DNA of 63,849 bases, filler included, from Polymyxa betae A26-41 (Eukaryota; Protista; Endomyxa: Phytomyxea), in NCBI GenBank assembly GCA_003693705.1. It is 5 parts of 5 records of this genome, joined end to end, with 100 filler letters (N's around TTAATTAATTAA, not from the genome) between each part and the next. Parts side by side here need not be neighbours in the genome. Positions count along the whole stretch, not along the records: positions 38,987 to 56,451 come from RBZT01000099.1; 4 more parts are not named here. One strand, written 5' to 3'. The position numbers and the translations under genes are program-made. The notes below the pieces were generated by a model that had not been told where the DNA came from, made no database searches, and was given only the letters and a program-made list of their open reading frames with translations. Below, piece after piece: positions 7,012 to 63,260 of the stretch (the first letter of the stretch is position 1; every line of letters starts with the position of its first letter).

Positions 7012-7111
7012 NNNNNNNNNNNNNNNNNNNNNNNNNNNNNNNNNNNNNNNNNNNNTTAATTAATTAANNNNNNNNNNNNNNNNNNNNNNNNNNNNNNNNN
7101 NNNNNNNNNNN
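7012..7111. other. Artificial contig linker (N44-TTAATTAATTAA-N44)
   Basis: The same six-frame-stop linker recurs at 34355-34454, 38887-38986 and 56452-56551. Confidence 0.97.
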
Positions 7112-37725: not shown

Positions 37726-38986
37726 CCTATTTCATTAAATCGATCTTAAACAGCGTATTTACTGTAAAAAAGTTATCAAGAATTCAAACCTGCCTAAATC
37801 TGTAGATGGAGCTTGATAATTAAAGCATGTGATTAACGGGCGTTTAGGATTTATCAATCGCTCATAAGTCTAATTAGGATTGCTGCTTCCACCGACAAGT
37901 ACGACAGTAATCTACATAGAGATTCTCTTAGAGATTTCGGCTTGATAGACAGCTCATCGAACGATTCGAGACTGCGACAATCTGATTCAACCATTGCATT
38001 AGTGATATTAAAATACATGTTTCCACAGTGTTTCAGTCCGTGGACATTTGAACCGGGGCTCTCTAATACTCCAAGTATCGGAATCAATTTGAATGATCAT
38101 GGATTCCTAAAGTATATTCAAATTATACTATAAACTCTGCGGTTGCATAATCTTAATGCACAATGTTTCACGGCTCCAACGCGCCGTTGCACGCTCTCTC
38201 AAGTCTTATACAGCATCTGCTGCATTTGAAAATCCGCCCGTTTCTATATACAAAGCCTTCCATACAAATTCAGCTTGATAGATAGACCTTTCTACTACTG
38301 TGGAACTGCATGAATTTGAATGAACCATTGCGTCAGGTATGTCAAAAGACATGTTTTTGGAAAGTTTAAGTCCGTTTTTGATTAAAACCGGACTCTCTGA
38401 TTTTACAAGTCCGAATGCATCCGTCATCATACTGGTACTTATAGCGAAGCCGGAAATGGTCATCAGACCATGATTCCAGAAAAGGCACTCGTTGTTCAAG
38501 GCATGAAACGAAATAGAATGATTTGCGGACGCCATTGTGTCCAAGTTCAAGATTCAGTTGCTGAAGGCTCGAATCTCTATGGATTAGACGAAAAATTCGA
38601 ATTTGAAATCAATAAAAATACAATTTCAAGATCCGAAGTAAATGTAATCATAAATTGCATGGTTAACAGCGTGTTTGTACAAAATTTCACAATCTCAAGT
38701 CTCAATGTGCCATCACTAGATTGATATGATAGCACGATTTGCTGAGATCTGAACCATTATCAGCTCATACAAGATTTTGATTCTCATATGTCCGGAAACA
38801 CGGCATGGAGATCGGGCGTGATGAGGGCATTCCAACGATCCGTCGCACGACTGCTAACTCCGAATACCGTACACTCTCTTATAATTNNNNNNNNNNNNNN
38901 NNNNNNNNNNNNNNNNNNNNNNNNNNNNNNTTAATTAATTAANNNNNNNNNNNNNNNNNNNNNNNNNNNNNNNNNNNNNNNNNNNN

Positions 38987-39108
38987 TTCTTTTAATTTAA
39001 AATTCTTATTGGGGTATTTTTCCTTGACGTATTTATATAATTTAGGTGCGGTTTTATAACCATTTGAAATATCATAATATACATCTTTTAGAATTTCATA
39101 TTATCCAT
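38987..39108 (-). pseudogene. N-terminus resembling Polinton retroviral-like integrase
   Basis: After a 1-nt slip: YEILKDVYYDISNGYKTAPKLYKYVKEKYPNKNFKLKE, matching the recalled Maverick integrase start L..IYYD…G……KLY…K. Cut by the contig end. Confidence 0.55.
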
Positions 39109-39127
39109 TATTATTAAGTTTTAATTT

Positions 39128-41445
39128 TTATTCAAAAAACTCTGACGCATCATCATCTTCATCATAATTAATAAGATTGTATTTTCCATTGAATGTTTCT
39201 TTTACAATATCCATAATTTCATTCCATGCTTTTTCTTGACCTTTTCTTTTAAAGAAAATATTGTGATGTTTCATTTTTCCATTATCCATATCCTTATATT
39301 TTATTCTGTACCTATCACTATATTTATGAATATTTGGTGTGATTTGAATATTCATATTGATAGTAGCACAACCTTTAACCTTGGGGGTTTCTTCTTTAAA
39401 GTTCGTTAAATTAATACAATTATCGCCATACACTTTTTTTATATTCAATTATATATTCTCTTTCATATTCTTTTATTAATCTTTCACTTCCTTTTACTTT
39501 TCCAATTAAATATATTTTCGGTTCAATCATATTTTTACTAACCACACATTCTGGATTCTCAAACGTGTTCTCTAAATCTATCCTCTAACCTTCTCAATGT
39601 ATATCCCACATAATAATAACTAGTTTTTTCACATTCAATATAGTAAATTTTTCCAATGGTATTTCTCTTAAAGCATTCATGACTTGTTATTTTTCTGGAG
39701 TATTCACTATAATAATAACTCTTTAATTTCCCCAATCTAATATTATTAATATCCGTTGCTCTTGTTATTGCAGTTAATAAGCATTCCAAACTCATTCTAT
39801 CTGTATCATAAATATTAAATTCTTCTTCAATTGTTCCACCTTAAAAACTATGACTGGTAATAGCATACCCTAAATCCAAATCCATAATATTAAATGTACC
39901 ATTAACAACATTATCTTCATTTTTTCAACTATGAATTTAGACCCTTTGAAAAATCCTTTATCTTCATAATGTTTCCTTAAAATTGCTTTATCACCTATCT
40001 TTAACCCATTACTAACTAAAGAATTAATAATTTTTTGGTTTCATTCAAAAATGTTATATTTGTTTTCAATTTTTCATCTATGGGTTTAAATTTATACCAT
40101 GTCGGCATTCTTCTATATTTTACAAAAACTTAATTACTTTGTATGTTTCTTGGGTTGAGTATCTACATTCTCTTTTTTCAATTTTTTCTTTAATTTCTTC
40201 ATCGGTAATATTTACTTTATTAAATCCCACTAAATCACCAGTAAAATCACATTGGTCATATTTATATGTTTCTTCACCTATATATTTATTCTGTTCCACA
40301 CTTCCAATAATAATTTTCATTCCGTTATACTTTATCAATTCTTCATATAATTTTGTATTTAGGTCGCAACCAATTCGGAAGAATTCATTTACAATTATTA
40401 CATCAAATTCTTCCAATTTTAACACGCTTCGCCCTTCATTATTTCCATCTTTATTTAATCCTAATACACTATGAATTGTCCTACATGTATAATCTGCTAC
40501 ACCAAATTTTTCACAATAATTTCTCATATTTTCAACAGCATTATTCTCAAATGCCATACATAATATTTTCTTATCTTTGTTTCTTTCAGTTGCCCCAGTG
40601 GTTTTTCTCATTCATCCTAAATCAAAACTGGTATAACTACTATTAAATCCGTTATTTACCCATTCTTTCTTATCAATATTAATTTCTTTATACAACTTCA
40701 ATTTTTCTTTCTTTTTTCTGTATTCACCTTCATTCATTTTGATGGGTTGTTTTAAAATTGTTTCTAAATCTTCAATATCCACATCTAATACTTTTATTTC
40801 ATTACATTTGAAATATACAGCATCAGTAATAATTCCAGTGATGAAATAGTCATCATACATTTCATCTATCGTATCAATAATATCAAATACATTTATATAT
40901 CCTCCTAAAATCACGCTATTATGAATAATGCAGTGGTCTCCAAAAACTCTTTCTGTATTTTGACTTTTCGCTATGAAAATTCTGTTTTCATCTTCACCTT
41001 CAAATGTAAGGTCGTATCCTTCTTCTAATGCTGACCCAACCACTAAATCTTGAGTAATAAATCCTCTATTTTCGTAAGTCCATTTTCTGTTTAAATTTCC
41101 AATGAAAGTATTAATAATATTCTTAACATCTCTTTGACTATCAATTTGCTCAAATGTTTCTTTAACAAACTCAACAAATAAATTTCCATCAATATATTTT
41201 CTACATTCCACATAACCCAGACAATTCAGTTTTAATCCTCTATTAATGAATTTTTCCACTATAAACAAGGGCATATAGCAAGCATCTATTTCAACCGCTC
41301 CATATTTTAATTTTTCAATTAAATAAATTCCATTTTTCCATTCTTGGATATTTCCTTTATTGATTTCCATTTCAGTTTTAATAAAATTATCAAAAATAGT
41401 AATCACTGGTATTTTAGCATCTTTAAAATAATTTATTACTGCTAA
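39128..41445 (-). pseudogene. Family B DNA polymerase C-terminus, SF1 (RecD/Pif1-like) helicase, GIY-YIG endonuclease and AP2-like fusion
   Basis: PolB: KNIINTFIG and IITDAVYF. Helicase: G*MRKT, MAFENNAV, TIHS, IIVNE, IGSVEQ, YAITSHSF*GGTI, TAITRA. GIYYI-like GKIYYI…YVGYT…RFREH is in frame with helicase motif VI. Confidence 0.8.
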
Positions 41446-42560
41446 GAGCAACCACAGCGGTTGCTTGATTTCTGTGCGTGATTTCTGTGCAATCACGCAG
41501 CAATAGCGCACATGGAATAACGCAAATGCCTCTGTTTGCCAGCGGTATTGGAGTTCCTCTGCGTGATTTGAATTTTTATATAAACAATGTCGATTCCGCC
41601 AGCAAGCTTCCAATCAGCTCTTGAGGCTTACCTTGACCGATTAGAAATGTTCTCACAGGATAGGTTCTCATCTCTTCCTACCATCCTTGCCTCGAGCTCG
41701 GATTCCAGTAGTGACGACGAAATTGGTGCATAGATTGTATGCACTGGAAATGGAAGAATGGCCCAACAGCCTGGCATGGGCAGTTTACCTCAGGAAAAGA
41801 AGGTGCTCCGACAATTATCTTGGAAGCCATCGCTGATAAGAGCTGTCGGTTTTGGCATTTCTTTTTTGGCACTCCTGGTTCTCTTAATGACATCAATGTC
41901 TTGGACAGGTAGAATGAAAAATGCTGTGTTATTTTAAACCGTTTGATTAGGTCGCATCTCTACCACGACATTATTAATGAGAAAGCGCCAACAGTGAACT
42001 TTTCAGTGAATGGGGAGCAGTTTAATTATGCCTACTGGCTGGCCGATGGGATCTATCCAGACCATGCCTGTCTGGTGAAGACGGTTCGCAATCCTGCAAC
42101 AAGAAAGACAAAAAAGTTTGCCAAAAAACAGGAGGAAGTTCGTAAAGACATCGAGAGGGCCTTTGGCATCCTACAGCGACGATTTCATGTACTGACAAAG
42201 ACTTGTGAGCTCTGGGACCGGCATGCGATGGCGTTAGTCATTCGAACTTGTGTTATTTTGCATAGCCTCATCCTCGATTACGAGAAGGTAAACGTCCGTA
42301 TTTAAAGCATTTCAAGCTGACAATTTCCAGGAGAATGACCTTGATTCCAATTATGTTGAGAATAATGACGAATATTCACCAGAGCACCCGTTCGTCGTGG
42401 TTGAGAATCGGAGTGAAATGCCGGCTACATTGGCATCTTAAAGTTCAAGACTTAGAGGGCTTCAAAGCAAAAGCGATTCCAAGCGGCTTCAGCTGGCATT
42501 GATAGATCATGTCTGGAATCGGTTCGGGGACGAAGATGAAGAACAGCAGCTCACGATACA
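41446..42560 (+). mobile_element. PIF/Harbinger #3 (left TIR plus deleted, intron-containing transposase), inserted in the viral PolB
   Basis: TAA then GAGCAACCACAG; CIDCMHWKWKN, TIILEAIAD, GSLNDINVLDR|SHL, YWLADGIYP, RKDIERAFG; introns 41909-41950 and 42288-42330. Confidence 0.9.
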
Positions 42561-42608: not shown

Positions 42609-44424
42609 TCAGAGCTCGATGGCTGAAGTTAGAGTCTCTTCGCCAAGGACCGATTGGATCAGCTCGGAATCCAAAACGTGCTGCTCTAATGAGTCAAACA
42701 CATCGCAGCACTGTATTATCGATTGTGAGCTGAATGTCATTGCATTGATGCGCTCCAGCTCCAGTCGCTTACGAGCGATCCGAAACTGACGATCGAGCAG
42801 CTCTTCTTCCGCTCGTGCCAATTCAAGCTGGTGCAAAGGATACGATGGCATAGTTTCGACTAATCCTCTTTGCAGAGCAAACGAAATGAACTTGACATCC
42901 TTTCATCAGGGATTCCGCCTTCAACTTAAGTGAAGCGAGATCACACATGACATTATTAGCACACATGAGTCTGGATGTAACCAACACAAAGGCGTCGATA
43001 AAGCCTTCTCTCTGTGCTTGAGAGAAATCCATCACTGTTCCACAGGCTTTGTAATATAAAGCAATCTTCTCATCAAAACCACAGCTAAGTGTGGCAATCT
43101 GGCGTGTCACTTCTCTAAGAATTACATTGAAGTGTGCCTTAGAATGTTCTCGTGTTAATCCATGGATCCAGGAGAAGGCAATCGGGACCCATCGATGCAA
43201 TAAATTGCAATATGTTGCCGTCGTGAGGAGATACCCTTCCTTAAAAATCGAATATGTAACATCAGAGACAGCACCTTCATCTTGACGCCCGGATGCAGGA
43301 TTCATGTCACTGATCCGAGCGTTTTTAGTGTTACGATCGTTGCAGCAACGATATGATCAAACCGGCTTAGCATAAACTTCGTGGCAACAGTAATGTGCAT
43401 CCTGCTAACGCTTAAACTGTCAGACAGTATGATCGTTGCACCGAATTTCTGTTGGAACTGTACAATAGAGTCTAGAAATGAATCGCCTTGACCTGATACA
43501 ATTTCAGAACACGACTTCAAGAAATAAACCAATACCAGGTAAAGTCACCCCTAATTCCATTAACGCATTCCGGCGGAAATAAGCAACCCTTGCAATGTTA
43601 CCGAATGCTTCGTGAATGGAGCGAACAGAATCAGTCAATGGAGTCCATGTAACAAATTTGACAGCTTTTGCTGAGGAATCGCTAACAATTCTCTGCGACA
43701 AGGCCTTCTTGGCATAATAATCAGCCTTAACAACATGCGGAACAGCGTGATGATGGGTTCCTTCATGGAGAATAATGGCCCTGACCTTCTGTAAACATTC
43801 GATCCATTTGCAGGTTGCTGTACAAGTGACCCGGAAAAGAGCACTGCTGCAAATAGGGCACCTAATGATCGATATCATTTCAAAATTACTCAAAATTGTT
43901 CGCTCAATTGGTACTCGGAATCAAATTCATGAGGCGTCTTCTGTTTCGGCCTTTGAGTAAACACGCATTCCTTTTTTTGGCATCGGATGATGCCATTGCA
44001 TTGTTTGGTGATGATTTTGTATGAACTTTTCGGGCTTTCGGTAATCGCTATAGCGAGAGCGGAATACTTTCCATTGCCATTCAGAATAGTGGGCCTGGAG
44101 GTTCGGTTTGAGAGATAATTGGTCAAACTTGAATACGCAGTCCCAATTTGGATGCATAGGGACTCCTTGTGAAGGAGCTACCACTAAATCCAGATCGCGT
44201 TTCGAAATCCCCTTTTGTCCATGTTAGGTCGATTTTGTCCACACAGTGAATATGTTCGGAATCATTCTCTGAAGGGGAGGTGCCATTGAATAAGTGCGAA
44301 ATGAATGCGAACTAATAGAAGATGAATCTCCTAATGATTTCGAAGATGATGGCTCAGTAATTGCAGCAGAATCGTGGAAGCGTTCCGAAGATTCCCCAGA
44401 ATATTCATCACTTAATACAAACAC
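42609..44424 (-). pseudogene. GCM-domain Mutator-like transposase
   Basis: WQWK…CNGIIRC…C…RP…CPIC…TC…HEGTHHH (GCM-like); SDVTY, RWVPI…WI.G…HF, VMDFSQAQREGF, KGCQVHF. Confidence 0.75.
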
Positions 44425-47091: not shown

Positions 47092-50000
47092 TGTTGGGGT
47101 AAAACTGGTTTCGGGTTAATTACCGACAATTTGGTGTTGTCGGGTGAACGAAGAAGGGCTAAGGTACCGGAATCTCTCGTGTACGATACACGGCCTTTTC
47201 TTGAACTTCGATCAATATTTATTAATGTTTTAATGGTCTGAAGAGCACTCCTATTCATGAACAGAGATTATGGGACCTAACTCCGATGCGCAGTTTAAAC
47301 TGCGCAGAGATTTAGAGAGCCGGTGAGATTCTCAACACGCCCCCTCGAATCGGCTGCAGTTCATCTTTCCTTCTCAGAGACATGGCAGATCGGCACCATA
47401 CAAATTTTGCGCTGTTGATTGGTTTCGTGAATGAATCGGCAACCATCACTGCTGTAATCACATGAGCTAATTCGCCCTGTTTTGCCTTAATCAGCTGTCT
47501 TGTGTAGTGGTACTTCACGTCGATGTGTTTCGTCCGGCTATCCGACCTGTTGTGATTGCTGATAGATATACATCCTCTGTTATCTGCAAAAAATGTGGTT
47601 GGATCGCTGTGCTCAAATCTAAGGTCTTTGCAAAGCTGACGTATCCAGACAGCCTCCCTTGATGCCGAACAAAGCGCAACATATTCTGCTTCTACGGATG
47701 ACAGAGACGTTATTGTCTGTAACTTGGATTTCCAGGGCACGGCTCCATCACCCATAAGGAACACAAAGCCGGTTGTAGAACGACTGGTATCAGGATCTCC
47801 TCCCCATTCCGAGTCCGAATATCCTATCAGTTTGGGCTGTTTTGGCGTCCTTTGGAAGAAAAGACCAAGGTTTGCAGTGCCAGAGAGATAGCGCAAGACC
47901 CGTTGTGCGGCGTGCCAGTGCTGTTTCCCCGGATTGGAAATAAATCGGCATAGGGACCCTACGGCCGTTGCGATGTCTGGTGTGGTGTTGGACGAAAGCC
48001 AATTCAGTGAGCCGACAAGCTCTCCATAAGGAACTCTTTTCATATAAGCTTTCTCATCATCGGACTGTGGACACATCATAGACGACGGGTGGACGTCAGG
48101 TTGATGTGATGTTGATGTTGGGGTGCAGCCAGTCATGTTGAATCGTTCGATTAACTGGTTGACATATTCCTCTTGGTCCAAAGCGATTCCCTGGTGGCCA
48201 ATTGTTACACGTACCCCTAAAGGTCGCTGCGGTTCTCGAACGTCAGTCAACTCCCATTTTTCAACGAGTTGTTTAATGAGGTCCGAGCACAATTCCATGC
48301 TGTTATGAACGAAGAACATGTCGTCCACGTGAACTGCCACCATAACGAGGGATTTCTTGCTTTGAAGAACATAAACACATGGTCAGCCAGCGTTCTGTGA
48401 AAGCCGAGTTGTTTTGTCAGGAAATTGTCAAGTTCTTGATTCCACACCATTCCTGCTTGTTTCAACCCATAAAGGGCCTTCTTTAGCCTGAGAACCTTCC
48501 TTGGACTCGTCGATTGAAGAAAACCTGCTGGTTGTTCCAAGTAAATATCCTCTTCAAGTTTGCCATTAAGAAACGTACCGACCACATCGACTTGGTGGAG
48601 GTGATAACCATTCTATGCGGCGAGGGCAATCAGGACGCGAAACGAAGTGGAATGTGCCACCGGAGCAAACGTTTCACTGTAGTCGACCCCAAACTGCTGC
48701 GAAAAGCCCTTGACAACGAGCCTGGCCTTGAATTTCCTGACTAGTCCTTGACCGTCGAGGCTTGGTTTTAAATCAAATACCCATTTGGACTGAATGGCTT
48801 TTCGCCATGAAGGTAAATCTACCAGCTCCCATGTATCGAATTTAGCGATTTGATCAAGCTCTGCTCTCATCGCGTCGTACCAGTGACCTGAGTACGATCC
48901 CGAGACGGCCTCCTTGAATGTGCTGGGAACCTTCACTTGCGATAATGGGATTCTGGATATGCACCGCCTTGGCAGTATCTCAGGATCGAATGTGGGAACA
49001 TTTGTCTCTGCAAGTGATGCAATCCACCATTTTCCAGGCGGTTTTCTGACGCGTCCAGGATATCTGCTCTCTGATTCGTCCGTTAAGTTCTCGGCGTCGG
49101 AATCGACGCATTCAGAATTCGGGGTCTCGTATGCCTCGTCATCGTTTAAGGACTCCGATTCTGAAAGCAGCTCGCCACTTCCAATGGTCCGGTCAGAAGC
49201 ACCATCTTGATCTTGACTTTCATCTGAATCATGATTTTCACTCTCACAAGGATCATCATGATTCTGCTTGGGGTAATCCTTTCCAGGACCGATATCATCA
49301 GAATCGTCGTCACTGGGGTACATATCTGACCGGCATTCGTTGTGTCCATCTTCTTCTCTGTCATCTGTGACAACACCTTGTAAATCGTGGTTGCATCGCC
49401 CGAAAGTGAACGATCTTTCATTAAATATCACACTGCGGCACGCGAAAATCTTCTTCGAGACAGGATCGAACAGCTTGTAAGCTTTCTGGGATGTTGCATG
49501 TCCCACGAAGATGCCGCGTTGTGCCCTTTGGCTTAAACTTGTTCGCTTAGCAGCGGGTATATATCCGCAACTATCACAGCCAAAGACCCGGAGATGGCAT
49601 AGGTTCGGCTTACGTCCCCACCACATTTCGAACGGCGTCTTGCCTTCTAAGTACGAATGCGGTCTTCGGTTCAGTAGATAAGCTGCTTGGCATACGGAAA
49701 GGCACCAGAACGATTTCGATAGCGCCGCTTGAAATCTTAACGATTCTGCAGTCTCCATAATTGTTCTGTTGAGTCTTTCGGCGACACCATTTGATTGTGG
49801 GCAATATGGTACTGTCGTTCTATGAGTGATTCCTCTGGAAGCTAGGTACTCTTGAAATTGCTTGCTCATGTATTCTCCTCCATTATCGCTCTGGAACATT
49901 TCAATCGACCGTCCACCTGCTTGAAGCTTGTTACATATAAATTTTTCGTAGTGTTTGAACGCATCACATTGGTCACTCTTGTTCTTGAGAAGATATATTT

Positions 50001-51817
50001 TGACATATCTTGTAAAATGGTCGGTATATGTGACGAAGTATCGCCAGCCCCCATCGATTGCAGGTGTTTTGAGAGGTCCTTTAATGTCCGACATTATCAG
50101 TTGACCTGGCCTCGTTGAATTAAACTGGCTCGCTGGGAACGGAAGTTGCGTCATTTTTGATAGAATACAAGGCTCACAAAGCGAGACATTTTCAGCCTTG
50201 CCGAGTTTGATCCCTTCTGCACCGCCTTTTGCAAGGATATTGAGATCTTTGTTATTGAGGTGACCAAGTCTTTGATGCCATATGTCACGGCCAATATCAC
50301 ATTTCAAGTTTGTCAGGTTAGCCAATGTATTTGACTGTTGGGTGATTTGCGGTTTAAACCGATATAAATTGTTATGATTCTTGCGGACTTTGGCCACAAC
50401 ATTCCCACTTGCTTGTTTGAACCCATCAGCAGCGTACAAGGTCCGGTAATCGCCGTCAAAAAGGAATTTTAGACCTAAGCTGGATGCTTGGCCAACAGAG
50501 AATAGTTTCTTTCCCAATTTTGGCACGAGTAAGGCATTATCTGTTTGGAGTATCTGATCGCCGATGGCAAATTCTGCTTGGCCGAAGCCATGAGATCCGA
50601 TTGTACTATTATCGCCTAGTTGAATTTCAGGTCCTAGGGTTGATGTGATATCCTTGAAGTAATTATTGCTCTTAAACATGTGGTTTGAACACCCGGAATC
50701 AACTATAATGGACGTATCGTTTCTACCAACGCTGTTAGCCGACGCTGAGCATATAGATTGCAATGAGTAAACTGAATGCTTAGACCTTGTATTATTGATT
50801 CGGTTGCGAAGCTCCGGATGCAGAGTAAAGCAAGCGTCATCTCCTCCGGGGTGGCGGTAGTGTGGAATTTTACAGATAGAAACTCCCGGCCTCTGCTTGG
50901 AAAGTTTTGAAATCTGGGCACGAAGACCGCTAATCTCCTCTTGCATGGCCAATTCAGCGGAGAATCTGCTCGACTGGGAACGCGCTTGGGTTTCAGCGTT
51001 TAACAGCATGTTAGTTGCCTTCTGCATGGAAACATCATCCAATGTGTCGAGTGCGGTGACAACCTCGTTAAACTCGTCTCCAATGTTTGCCAAAGTGAGT
51101 GCGATCTTGAGCTTTTCTGGGCATTCTAATCCTGCATTGGTTACTGGTTGAGCTCGGGATTCCATCACGGCAATATAGTCGACAATTGCCATAGAAGGCT
51201 GCTTTTCGGTTTGAACTAACGCTTTGACGGCCGAAATGAGTGCCGCCACTGAGCCTCGTTGAAACATTTCATGAAGCGCTTTCCACAATTGATACGATGT
51301 TTTGGACTTTTGTTCAACGACCAGGATCTTATCGTCAAGGTGAAGCTCGATCTTGGCCTTGGCACGACGGTCTGTTTTGACAAGTTCGCCTTTGAGGATT
51401 GGCGCTGTGCTGTCAGGTTTAAAGGTTGAAGCGTTAAATCCAACGGCCTCGTCATATTCCTTGTCAATGAGCAAGGAGCCCATTCGGCGGGCCCATTGTT
51501 GATAATTCTCGCCTGTGAGAAGTGGGACACGGTCATCCTTTCCCATGGTGAGCTTGGGACTCTTAACCTTTTGTTGGGGTAAAACTGGTTTCGGGTTAAT
51601 TACCGACAATTTGGTGCTGTCGGGTGAACGAAGAAGGGCTAAGGTTCCGGAATCTCTCGTGTACAATACACGGCCTTTTGTTGAACTTCGATCAATATTT
51701 ATTAATTTTTTAATGGTCTGAAGAGCACTCCTATTCATGAACAGAGATTATGGGACATAACTCCGGTGCGTAGTTTAAACTGCGCAAAGATTTAGAGAGC
51801 CGGTGTGATTCTCAACA
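47092..51817 (-). mobile_element. Full-length Ty1/Copia nested in the Gypsy gag
   Basis: 246-bp LTRs 47092-47337 and 51572-51817; TSD CGCGC/CCCGC; PPT near 47338-47347; PBS 51547-51571. Confidence 0.97.
47345..51546 (-). pseudogene. Copia gag-pol polyprotein (one stop at 48613 plus RT frameshifts)
   Basis: IVDSGCSNHM, WHQRLGH…CEPC, SDIKGP, SDNGGEY, NGVAERLNRT, KARLVVKGFSQ, LYGLKQA, VHVDD, GYSDS, EAEY, KHIDVKYH. Likely start MGKDDR at 51546. Confidence 0.95.
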
Positions 51818-62678: not shown

Positions 62679-62866
62679 TTCGGCTAGCAAGAATGATTTG
62701 CCGTCGCAACGGAAAACCCACTCGTTTTGCAGTCCTACCCTCGCAGTTTACAGATCGCTGTAAAATTTTTACCGTTTTCCGTCATGCGGTGGAACCAAAA
62801 ATCTGTATTTTTTACTGAAAATTACAGTTACCGCGGCATTTTCGGTCCGCGGTGGAGATGCTCTAA

Positions 62867-63260
62867 TAGAGTAGATAATGATGAGCACCTCAATATCATC
62901 AAAAGAAACGACAGAGATGGTTATAGAGTGCAATTCTCATTTAAGTCTATGAAGAATATTGACAAATCATTTGAAAACCTTGTTGATGCCATTGATTTCC
63001 GCAATATAATACAACTGATAATTGACAATAATGAGAAAATTTGCCTGGTGTTTGTAGATCTTTATTAGAACGATATGAAACACATAGCAATCACAAAATA
63101 TGGAAAATATCAACTGATTATCAAAAAGCAAAAACCTGAAATTTGATAAGCCATTCAAAACACTTGATGATGCGAAGAGGAAAAGGGAAGAACTATTGAA
63201 GGAATATTATAATGACTCATCTAGTCTTGACACATCTAACACCAACATATAAAAATGAAA
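62867..63260 (+). pseudogene. AT-rich fragment with two AP2-like DNA-binding repeats (virus-like)
   Basis: HLNIIKR…GYRVQF…KSFENLVDAIDFRN and MKHIAITKYGKYQLIIKK…FKTLDDAKRKREELL. Confidence 0.5.

What the first reader, a model, noticed from the sequence alone, without database searches (positions are those of the whole stretch)
38987..41445. Polinton-like viral relic with an apparent single PolB-SF1 helicase-GIY-YIG(-AP2) replication polyprotein next to an integrase
Seen: an AT-rich island whose minus strand carries, in order, PolB motifs B and C (KNIINTFIG; IITDAVYF) and then six or so SF1B helicase motifs. The helicase begins in the same frame as PolB, with only one TGA (40612-40614) inside the Walker A. 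GIY-YIG lies in one ORF with helicase motif VI (39559..39795), followed by an AP2-like tail. A new gene starts 20 nt later and resembles the N-terminus of Maverick integrases. Known: canonical Polintons encode a stand-alone protein-primed PolB and an rve integrase; SF1 helicases and GIY-YIG nucleases occur in relatives such as Tetrahymena Tlr and Polinton-like viruses. Inference: this is a decayed copy of an integrating dsDNA virus lineage using a three-enzyme fusion (polymerase, unwinding, nicking), possibly an undescribed replication module.
Basis: partly seen in the sequence, partly recalled or inferred. Interest (0 to 1): 0.85.

Follow-up and report, generated by a model that had tools for sequence, protein, structure and literature searches.

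The report
Broken Tlr1-like viral replication gene
This is a broken 2.5 kb piece of a gene that fuses a DNA polymerase core, a helicase and a nuclease, likely left by an integrating DNA virus in a protist genome; the same three-part fusion is already described for the Tlr1 element of Tetrahymena, so only the lineage and the likely host group are new.

Summary
The AT-rich island 38987-41445 carries, on the minus strand, a protein-primed polymerase palm, an SF1B helicase, a GIY-YIG nuclease and a conserved tail, broken by three stops and several frameshifts. The fusion is real: natural relatives (P0062, P0068, P0077) hold all three domains in one frame and match the window's pieces in order. The window's own palm folds well (pLDDT 86.6) and its best matches are protein-primed polymerases. 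The novelty claim fails. This architecture is the 'Tlr1-like helicase' (pPolB-S1H, with GIY-YIG in Tlr1) described in 2016 and 2024; Tlr1 also encodes an rve integrase. The copy is cut by a PIF transposon at polymerase motif A and by an assembly spacer. Two sequencing studies hold this exact copy plus many 80-95% identical copies whose differences fall mostly on third codon positions. The host looks like an oomycete or phytomyxid. The AP2 and integrase labels were not confirmed by any library; capsid, ATPase and terminal repeats lie outside what is held. Verdict: new member of a known kind, in an unnamed clade and possibly an unreported host group.

The parts
40615..41445 (-). Protein-primed family B polymerase palm, from just after motif A through motifs B and C and a linker
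   Evidence: Model pLDDT 86.6; top PDB match phi29 polymerase Z 6.1, rmsd 5.9, 209 aligned; 8 of the top 10 BFVD rows are named DNA polymerases, E 1e-4 to 8e-4, the other 2 unnamed; motifs conserved in relatives
40612..40614 (-). In-frame stop inside the degenerate Walker A
   Evidence: contigs without a difference cover it in runs X1, X2 and X4, so it is no sequencing error; 10 of 61 relatives match across it in one stretch
40120..40611 (-). SF1B helicase, N-terminal domain (motifs Ia to IV); Walker B Asp and motif III Asp are replaced in this copy
   Evidence: AAA_19 E 5e-8; alignment; model of relative P0062 matches RecD2, RecD, Pif1, Dda
39733..40126 (-). SF1B helicase, C-terminal part with motifs V and VI, in three frames, stop at 39841-39843
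   Evidence: tblastn of P0062 and P0074 gives collinear pieces in frames -3, -2, -1
39436..39660 (-). GIY-YIG nuclease domain, in frame with helicase motif VI, broken by a frame change and a stop near 39560-39585
   Evidence: PF01541 E 1.5e-4; P0074 matches both halves; P0077 hits a GIY-YIG PHROG at E 1.2e-5
39128..39435 (-). C-terminal tail, conserved in relatives; AP2-like by recalled pattern only
   Evidence: Aligns to the tails of P0074, P0077, P0072, P0076 at 18-25%; 4 of 4 variant sites at third codon positions; no AP2 hit
38987..39108 (-). Start of the next gene, likely an rve integrase of Maverick type (recalled pattern), out of frame near its ATG and cut by the assembly spacer
   Evidence: 37 codons; no library hit; 3 of 3 variant sites at third codon positions; a diverged copy in X2 keeps it behind the tail (record 8)
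41446..42305 (+). PIF/Harbinger transposon end and transposase remnant, inserted at a TAA inside polymerase motif A; its other end was not found
   Evidence: TAA then GAGCAAC at the junction; Plant_tran E 1e-41; relative L001 shows motif A directly upstream of the aligned point; no second end in the window
38887..38986 (.). Assembly spacer (44 N, TTAATTAATTAA, 44 N); adjacency across it is not shown
   Evidence: the same pair of 44-N runs, 12 nt apart, lies at 7012, 34355 and 56452

Best explanation
The island is a broken, multicopy-family piece of a gene that joins a protein-primed polymerase palm, an SF1B helicase and a GIY-YIG nuclease in one frame, likely the Tlr1-like replication gene of an integrated polinton-like virus, likely followed by its integrase gene, in a likely oomycete or phytomyxid host. 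In the intact element the protein would be cut by an upstream OTU-like protease to free a terminal protein that primes synthesis at the ends of a linear genome; the palm would copy DNA without proofreading while the fused helicase would unwind ahead of it (model of PMC11161782, inferred here). The GIY-YIG domain with its tail is most likely a captured homing endonuclease rather than a needed replication part, because relatives lack it or carry another domain. The integrase would insert the genome into host chromosomes. This copy is dead: shown by stops, frameshifts and a PIF insertion.
For: Single-frame relatives with palm motifs A-C, helicase motifs and GIY-YIG: 3 of 11 scanned (P0062, P0068, P0077); P0062 matches the window in four collinear pieces, E 1.7e-47, and falls in a supported clade of 8 of 17 rows with the window (99/98). 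Palm fold. Motif C keeps only the second Asp, as described for Tlr1-like helicases. Cys and His patterns upstream of the palm in 5 of 11 relatives. A distant relative lies beside virophage capsid genes (L002). Many diverged copies in runs of two studies; 31 of 42 listed variant sites are third codon positions, p 1e-7. Host-type PIF transposase: best named matches Aphanomyces 56% and Plasmodiophora 59%, ahead of plants at 43-49%.
Against: No capsid, ATPase or terminal repeat is in the window. No Tlr1 or transpoviron sequence was on hand, so the tie to Tlr1 rests on architecture, not on a tree. The palm's PDB scores are middling (Foldseek E 0.05; Z 6.1) and it has no Pfam polymerase hit (1 of 48 relatives hits DNA_pol_B_2, weakly). 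The integrase label rests on 37 codons and a recalled pattern. The OTU reading is by pattern only, and P0062 and P0075 lack it. Host group comes from one transposase, and transposons can move between hosts.
Confidence: 0.85

Rival explanations
1. The element is a capsid-less linear plasmid or transposon (transpoviron-like) that uses the same fusion and moves by its integrase.
For: No morphogenesis gene is seen in the window; PMC13215967 notes complete elements without structural genes; the top BFVD match is an unnamed 999-aa protein that I recall, unverified, as a transpoviron helicase.
Against: Only 2.5 kb is held, between a spacer and a transposon; Tlr1 and most PLVs with this fusion encode capsids; a distant relative sits beside capsid genes.
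Confidence: 0.2
2. The three-domain fusion arose independently of Tlr1 and is a new replication module in which GIY-YIG nicks DNA for replication.
For: The window belongs to a supported clade of unnamed proteins; GIY-YIG and the tail recur in several relatives; PMC5499653 says nuclease domains were appended more than once.
Against: Same domain order, same motif C change and the same upstream Cys/His pattern as published Tlr1-like helicases; relatives P0078 and L002 end at the helicase and P0055 carries another C-terminal domain, so the nuclease is dispensable.
Confidence: 0.08
3. The island is a contaminant or mis-join: a free virus or another organism's DNA assembled into the scaffold.
For: It ends at an assembly spacer; GC differs sharply; one variant lies at about ten times this copy's depth.
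Against: One 1134-nt contig without differences runs from 40339 to 41472 across the PIF junction in two studies (27 nt on the PIF side, short of the tool's 31); the junction is a clean TAA target; stops and frameshifts do not fit a free virus; the depth ratio is similar in both studies.
Confidence: 0.04

Closest known systems
Tlr1 element of Tetrahymena thermophila (Tlr1-like helicase, AAL73455.1 as cited in PMC12721341)
   Same: pPolB palm, SF1 helicase and GIY-YIG in one protein, in this order; rve integrase in the element; multicopy, integrated.
   Different: Host is likely an oomycete or phytomyxid, not a ciliate; an extra conserved tail follows GIY-YIG; no sequence comparison with Tlr1 could be run.
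pPolB-S1H fusions of polinton-like viruses; pMVRE groups 2 and 3 (PMC13215967)
   Same: Palm-only polymerase fused to an SF1 helicase; rve, GIY-YIG and capsid are common in the complete elements.
   Different: Most PLVs carry HNH instead of GIY-YIG at the end. No oomycete or phytomyxid is in the host lists of groups 2 and 3, although such genomes were screened.
Transpovirons
   Same: Same polymerase-helicase fusion.
   Different: No C-terminal GIY-YIG was identified in them; an integrase neighbour is not described in the passages read.
Canonical Polintons/Mavericks
   Same: Protein-primed polymerase; likely rve integrase; integrated AT-rich island.
   Different: Their polymerase has an exonuclease domain and no fused SF1 helicase.
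OmPLV helicase-pPolB fusion (PMC12721341)
   Same: SF1 helicase and pPolB in one protein, fragmented in the host genome.
   Different: Opposite order and a complete exonuclease domain.

Membership tests
Tlr1-like helicase (pPolB-S1H fusion) | Polymerase palm with motifs A, B, C, first Asp of motif C absent | tested here: met
   B and C in the window; A in L001 and in relatives; only the second Asp is kept; fold matches family B palms
Tlr1-like helicase (pPolB-S1H fusion) | Protein-primed type (TPR1 and TPR2 insertions) | tested here: inconclusive
   phi29 polymerase aligns over 209 residues against 139-162 for RNA-primed enzymes and BFVD matches are protein-primed enzymes; the subdomains were not inspected one by one
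Tlr1-like helicase (pPolB-S1H fusion) | SF1B helicase C-terminal to the palm in the same frame | tested here: met
   Same frame with one stop in the window; 10 of 61 relatives match across it; RecD2/Pif1/Dda folds
Tlr1-like helicase (pPolB-S1H fusion) | vOTU protease upstream of the palm and no exonuclease domain | tested here: inconclusive
   Region lost in the window; Cys and His patterns in 5 of 11 relatives, absent in P0062 and P0075; no fold test of that part
Tlr1-like helicase (pPolB-S1H fusion) | C-terminal homing endonuclease (GIY-YIG in Tlr1, HNH in PLVs) | tested here: met
   GIY-YIG in frame with motif VI and in single-frame relatives
Tlr1-like helicase (pPolB-S1H fusion) | Groups with Tlr1, PLV and transpoviron proteins in palm or helicase trees | not testable with these tools
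   No named reference sequence was returned by any search; the tree holds unnamed rows only
Tlr1-type polinton-like virus (element) | rve integrase | tested here: inconclusive
   37 codons of a conserved next gene, no library hit
Tlr1-type polinton-like virus (element) | Major and minor capsid proteins, packaging ATPase, terminal inverted repeats | not testable with these tools
   No host genome is held; the copy is cut on both sides; none seen in the window
Canonical Polinton/Maverick | Stand-alone pPolB without a fused SF1 helicase | tested here: not met
   Palm runs into the helicase in one frame in the window and in relatives
AP2 DNA-binding domain (tail) | Match to an AP2 profile or structure | tested here: inconclusive
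   No hit in Pfam, PHROGs or PDB sequence searches; not folded

The most novel reading that the evidence does not exclude
An undescribed clade of Tlr1-like integrating viruses, with a polymerase-helicase-GIY-YIG-AP2-like protein beside an rve integrase, has invaded an oomycete or phytomyxid plant parasite repeatedly, and one subfamily of about ten near-identical copies is recent and perhaps still intact; these host groups are missing from the published host lists for this fusion.
Probability: 0.4. Interest if true: 0.45.

Novelty: new member of a known kind. Interest (0 to 1): 0.27.

Why it matters
The fusion itself adds nothing new in kind. What it adds: a second, non-ciliate lineage with the full Tlr1 layout (GIY-YIG at the end, likely integrase next door), intact natural relatives with all polymerase motifs that could settle whether these palms are active (called inactive in 2016, predicted active in 2024), and a likely endogenous DNA virus family in a host group for which the lists read here show none with this fusion.

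Tried and rejected
No host genome was held, so no intact copy, capsid gene, terminal repeat or target duplication could be sought. Word-index search for longer relatives found none; the exhaustive search did. Locus scans: viral contigs gave nothing for the window palm, P0068, A6 and A7 and one locus for A9; metagenome contigs gave nothing for P0062 and one locus for A6. The phage collection gave two weak helicase-only rows. The full-length model of P0062 was poor (pLDDT 45) and showed only the helicase. PDB sequence searches found helicases but no polymerase. No Atlas result was obtained. P0016 is a repeat-rich surface protein and was dropped as a chance match. Runs X3 and X4 hold only small shares and were not used for habitat or host. 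L002 capsid, penton, protease and ATPase have no match in the window. Our earlier findings returned nothing. Paper searches for 'phytomyxid' with 'polinton', for three of 'polinton, Spongospora, Plasmodiophora, endogenous viral' and for H6WBE3 found 0 papers; the original Tlr1 paper was not reached. Rejected: a sequencing error at the stop; an alternative genetic code (relatives have Gly-rich Walker A there, and the copy also has frameshifts, TAA and TAG stops); chance motifs (E 8e-71).

Full report
Observation. The stretch 38987-41445 is an AT-rich island (GC about 0.25 against 0.45). Its minus strand reads, in order: 277 codons with KNIINTFIG and IITDAVYF, a TGA at 40612-40614, 163 codons of helicase in the same frame (AAA_19, E 5e-8), further helicase pieces in other frames, a frame with helicase motif VI running into GIY-YIG (PF01541, E 1.5e-4), a 106-codon tail, and 37 codons of a next gene. 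The left edge is an assembly spacer of 44 N, TTAATTAATTAA and 44 N; no adjacency is shown across it. The right edge is TAA followed by a PIF/Harbinger-type end, with a Plant_tran transposase remnant at 41913-42305.

The fusion is real. An exhaustive search with the palm and first helicase frame, X at the stop, gave 61 proteins at E up to 0.001, the best at 8e-71; 10 of the 61 match across the stop in one stretch, and one (P0016) is a chance match. Cluster members and an alignment search added full-length forms. In a motif scan of 11 long relatives, 3 (P0062, P0068, P0077) hold palm motifs A, B, C, Walker A and B, helicase motifs V and VI and GIY-YIG in one frame; P0074 joins the helicase end to GIY-YIG and a tail; P0078 ends at the helicase and P0055 carries another domain. 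P0062 matches the window in four collinear pieces over three frames (E 1.7e-47) and shares a supported clade of 8 of 17 rows with it (99/98). The closest relative, L001 (51%), shows motif A directly upstream of the point where the PIF sits in the window, and a Walker A start behind the palm.

The domains. The window's palm, folded with 48 aligned sequences, reached pLDDT 86.6. Its best PDB match is phi29 polymerase (Z 6.1, rmsd 5.9, 209 aligned), followed by herpesvirus and alpha polymerases; Foldseek ranks phi29 first but only at E 0.05. Among viral models, 10 matches reach E under 0.001: 8 named polymerases of bidnavirus-like, tectivirus, mavirus and MELD type, and 2 unnamed proteins of 999 and 1057 aa. 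Motif C keeps only the second Asp across the family. The P0062 model was poor overall, but its helicase matched RecD2, RecD, Pif1 and Dda. The tail aligns loosely with tails of four relatives, yet no search called it AP2. The next gene has no library hit; its likeness to Maverick integrase starts is recalled.

In the genome. Runs X1 and X2, of two studies, hold this copy without differences, including the stop, and one contig crosses the PIF junction by 27 nt. At 80% likeness, 84 contigs of X1 and 34 of X2 lie on the island, 51 and 17 of them under 95% alike. Of 42 variant sites listed inside the island (the best supported of several hundred), 31 are third codon positions and 26 are silent, so the family diverged under selection in these frames, including the tail (4 of 4) and the next gene (3 of 3). 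One variant lies at about ten times this copy's depth in both studies. A PIF transposase elsewhere in the window has Aphanomyces (56%) and Plasmodiophora (59%) as best named matches, ahead of plants, which points to an oomycete or phytomyxid host. No capsid, ATPase or terminal repeat is in the window.

How it likely worked. Shown: one polypeptide with palm, SF1B helicase and GIY-YIG; this copy is dead. Inferred from PMC11161782 (passages): an upstream vOTU protease releases a terminal protein, the exonuclease-less palm is an active protein-primed polymerase, and the helicase unwinds the linear genome. Cys and His patterns upstream of the palm in 5 of 11 relatives fit this. GIY-YIG is most likely a captured homing endonuclease, since some relatives lack it. 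A distant relative in IMG/VR (L002; profile match probability 99.3) sits beside virophage capsid genes, which ties the wider family to viruses.

Comparison. PMC5499653 (parts 1-3 of 5 read) describes Tlr1-like helicases: palm motifs, then SF1 helicase, then GIY-YIG in Tlr1 or HNH in PLVs, with Tlr1 also encoding capsids, ATPase and rve integrase. PMC3671162 (passages) already notes the helicase-GIY-YIG fusion of Tlr1. PMC12721341 (passages) names 'pPolB-Helicase SF1-GIY-YIG' for Tlr1. PMC13215967 (parts 1-2 of 6, supplement 2 whole, supplement 4 part 1, searches in all 8 held files) reports many such fusions in groups 2 and 3; its host lists for these groups name no oomycete or phytomyxid. [quoted passage not shown] The module therefore works like, and by every feature testable here is, a Tlr1-like helicase; placement in a tree with named references could not be tested.

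Verdict. Observation confirmed, fusion confirmed, novelty of the module refuted. New member of a known kind, in an unnamed clade and possibly an unreported host group. Interest 0.27.

Noticed in passing
window 62860-63260: Second, small AT-rich patch with two short plus-strand frames that resemble AP2-type DNA-binding motifs (recalled pattern); no Pfam hit for the longer one.
   Followed up: no
L002:759-9928: Virophage contig (Sputnik-type major and minor capsid hits, ATPase-like and protease-like genes) whose replication gene is a 987-aa pPolB palm-SF1 helicase fusion; in the papers read, virophages are given pPolB with a separate S3H or PolA-S3H.
   Followed up: partly
P0055: 1707-aa relative in which the helicase is followed, not by GIY-YIG, but by a domain that looks like an AEP primase with a zinc finger (recalled pattern; no Pfam hit for it).
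   Followed up: no
L001:1-1590: Closest relative (51% over the palm), from a metagenome contig; it is also broken by two stops, so probably another endogenous copy in a related host.
   Followed up: partly
window 38990-41445, runs X1 and X2: One diverged variant lies at about ten times the depth of this copy in both studies (1827-1872 against 156-186; 61 against 5-7.5), a hint of a recent near-identical subfamily; contig depth is no copy number.
   Followed up: partly
window 1-63849: The window is nearly all transposon debris (Gypsy, Copia, PIF/Harbinger, other DDE); none of 78 long frames scanned gave a clear host gene. The Copia frame 48613-51747 is open for 1044 aa.
   Followed up: no
window 43504-43920: Frame with a His-rich motif that resembles GCM-type domains of MULE-like transposons (recalled; no Pfam hit), inside or beyond the PIF.
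   Followed up: no
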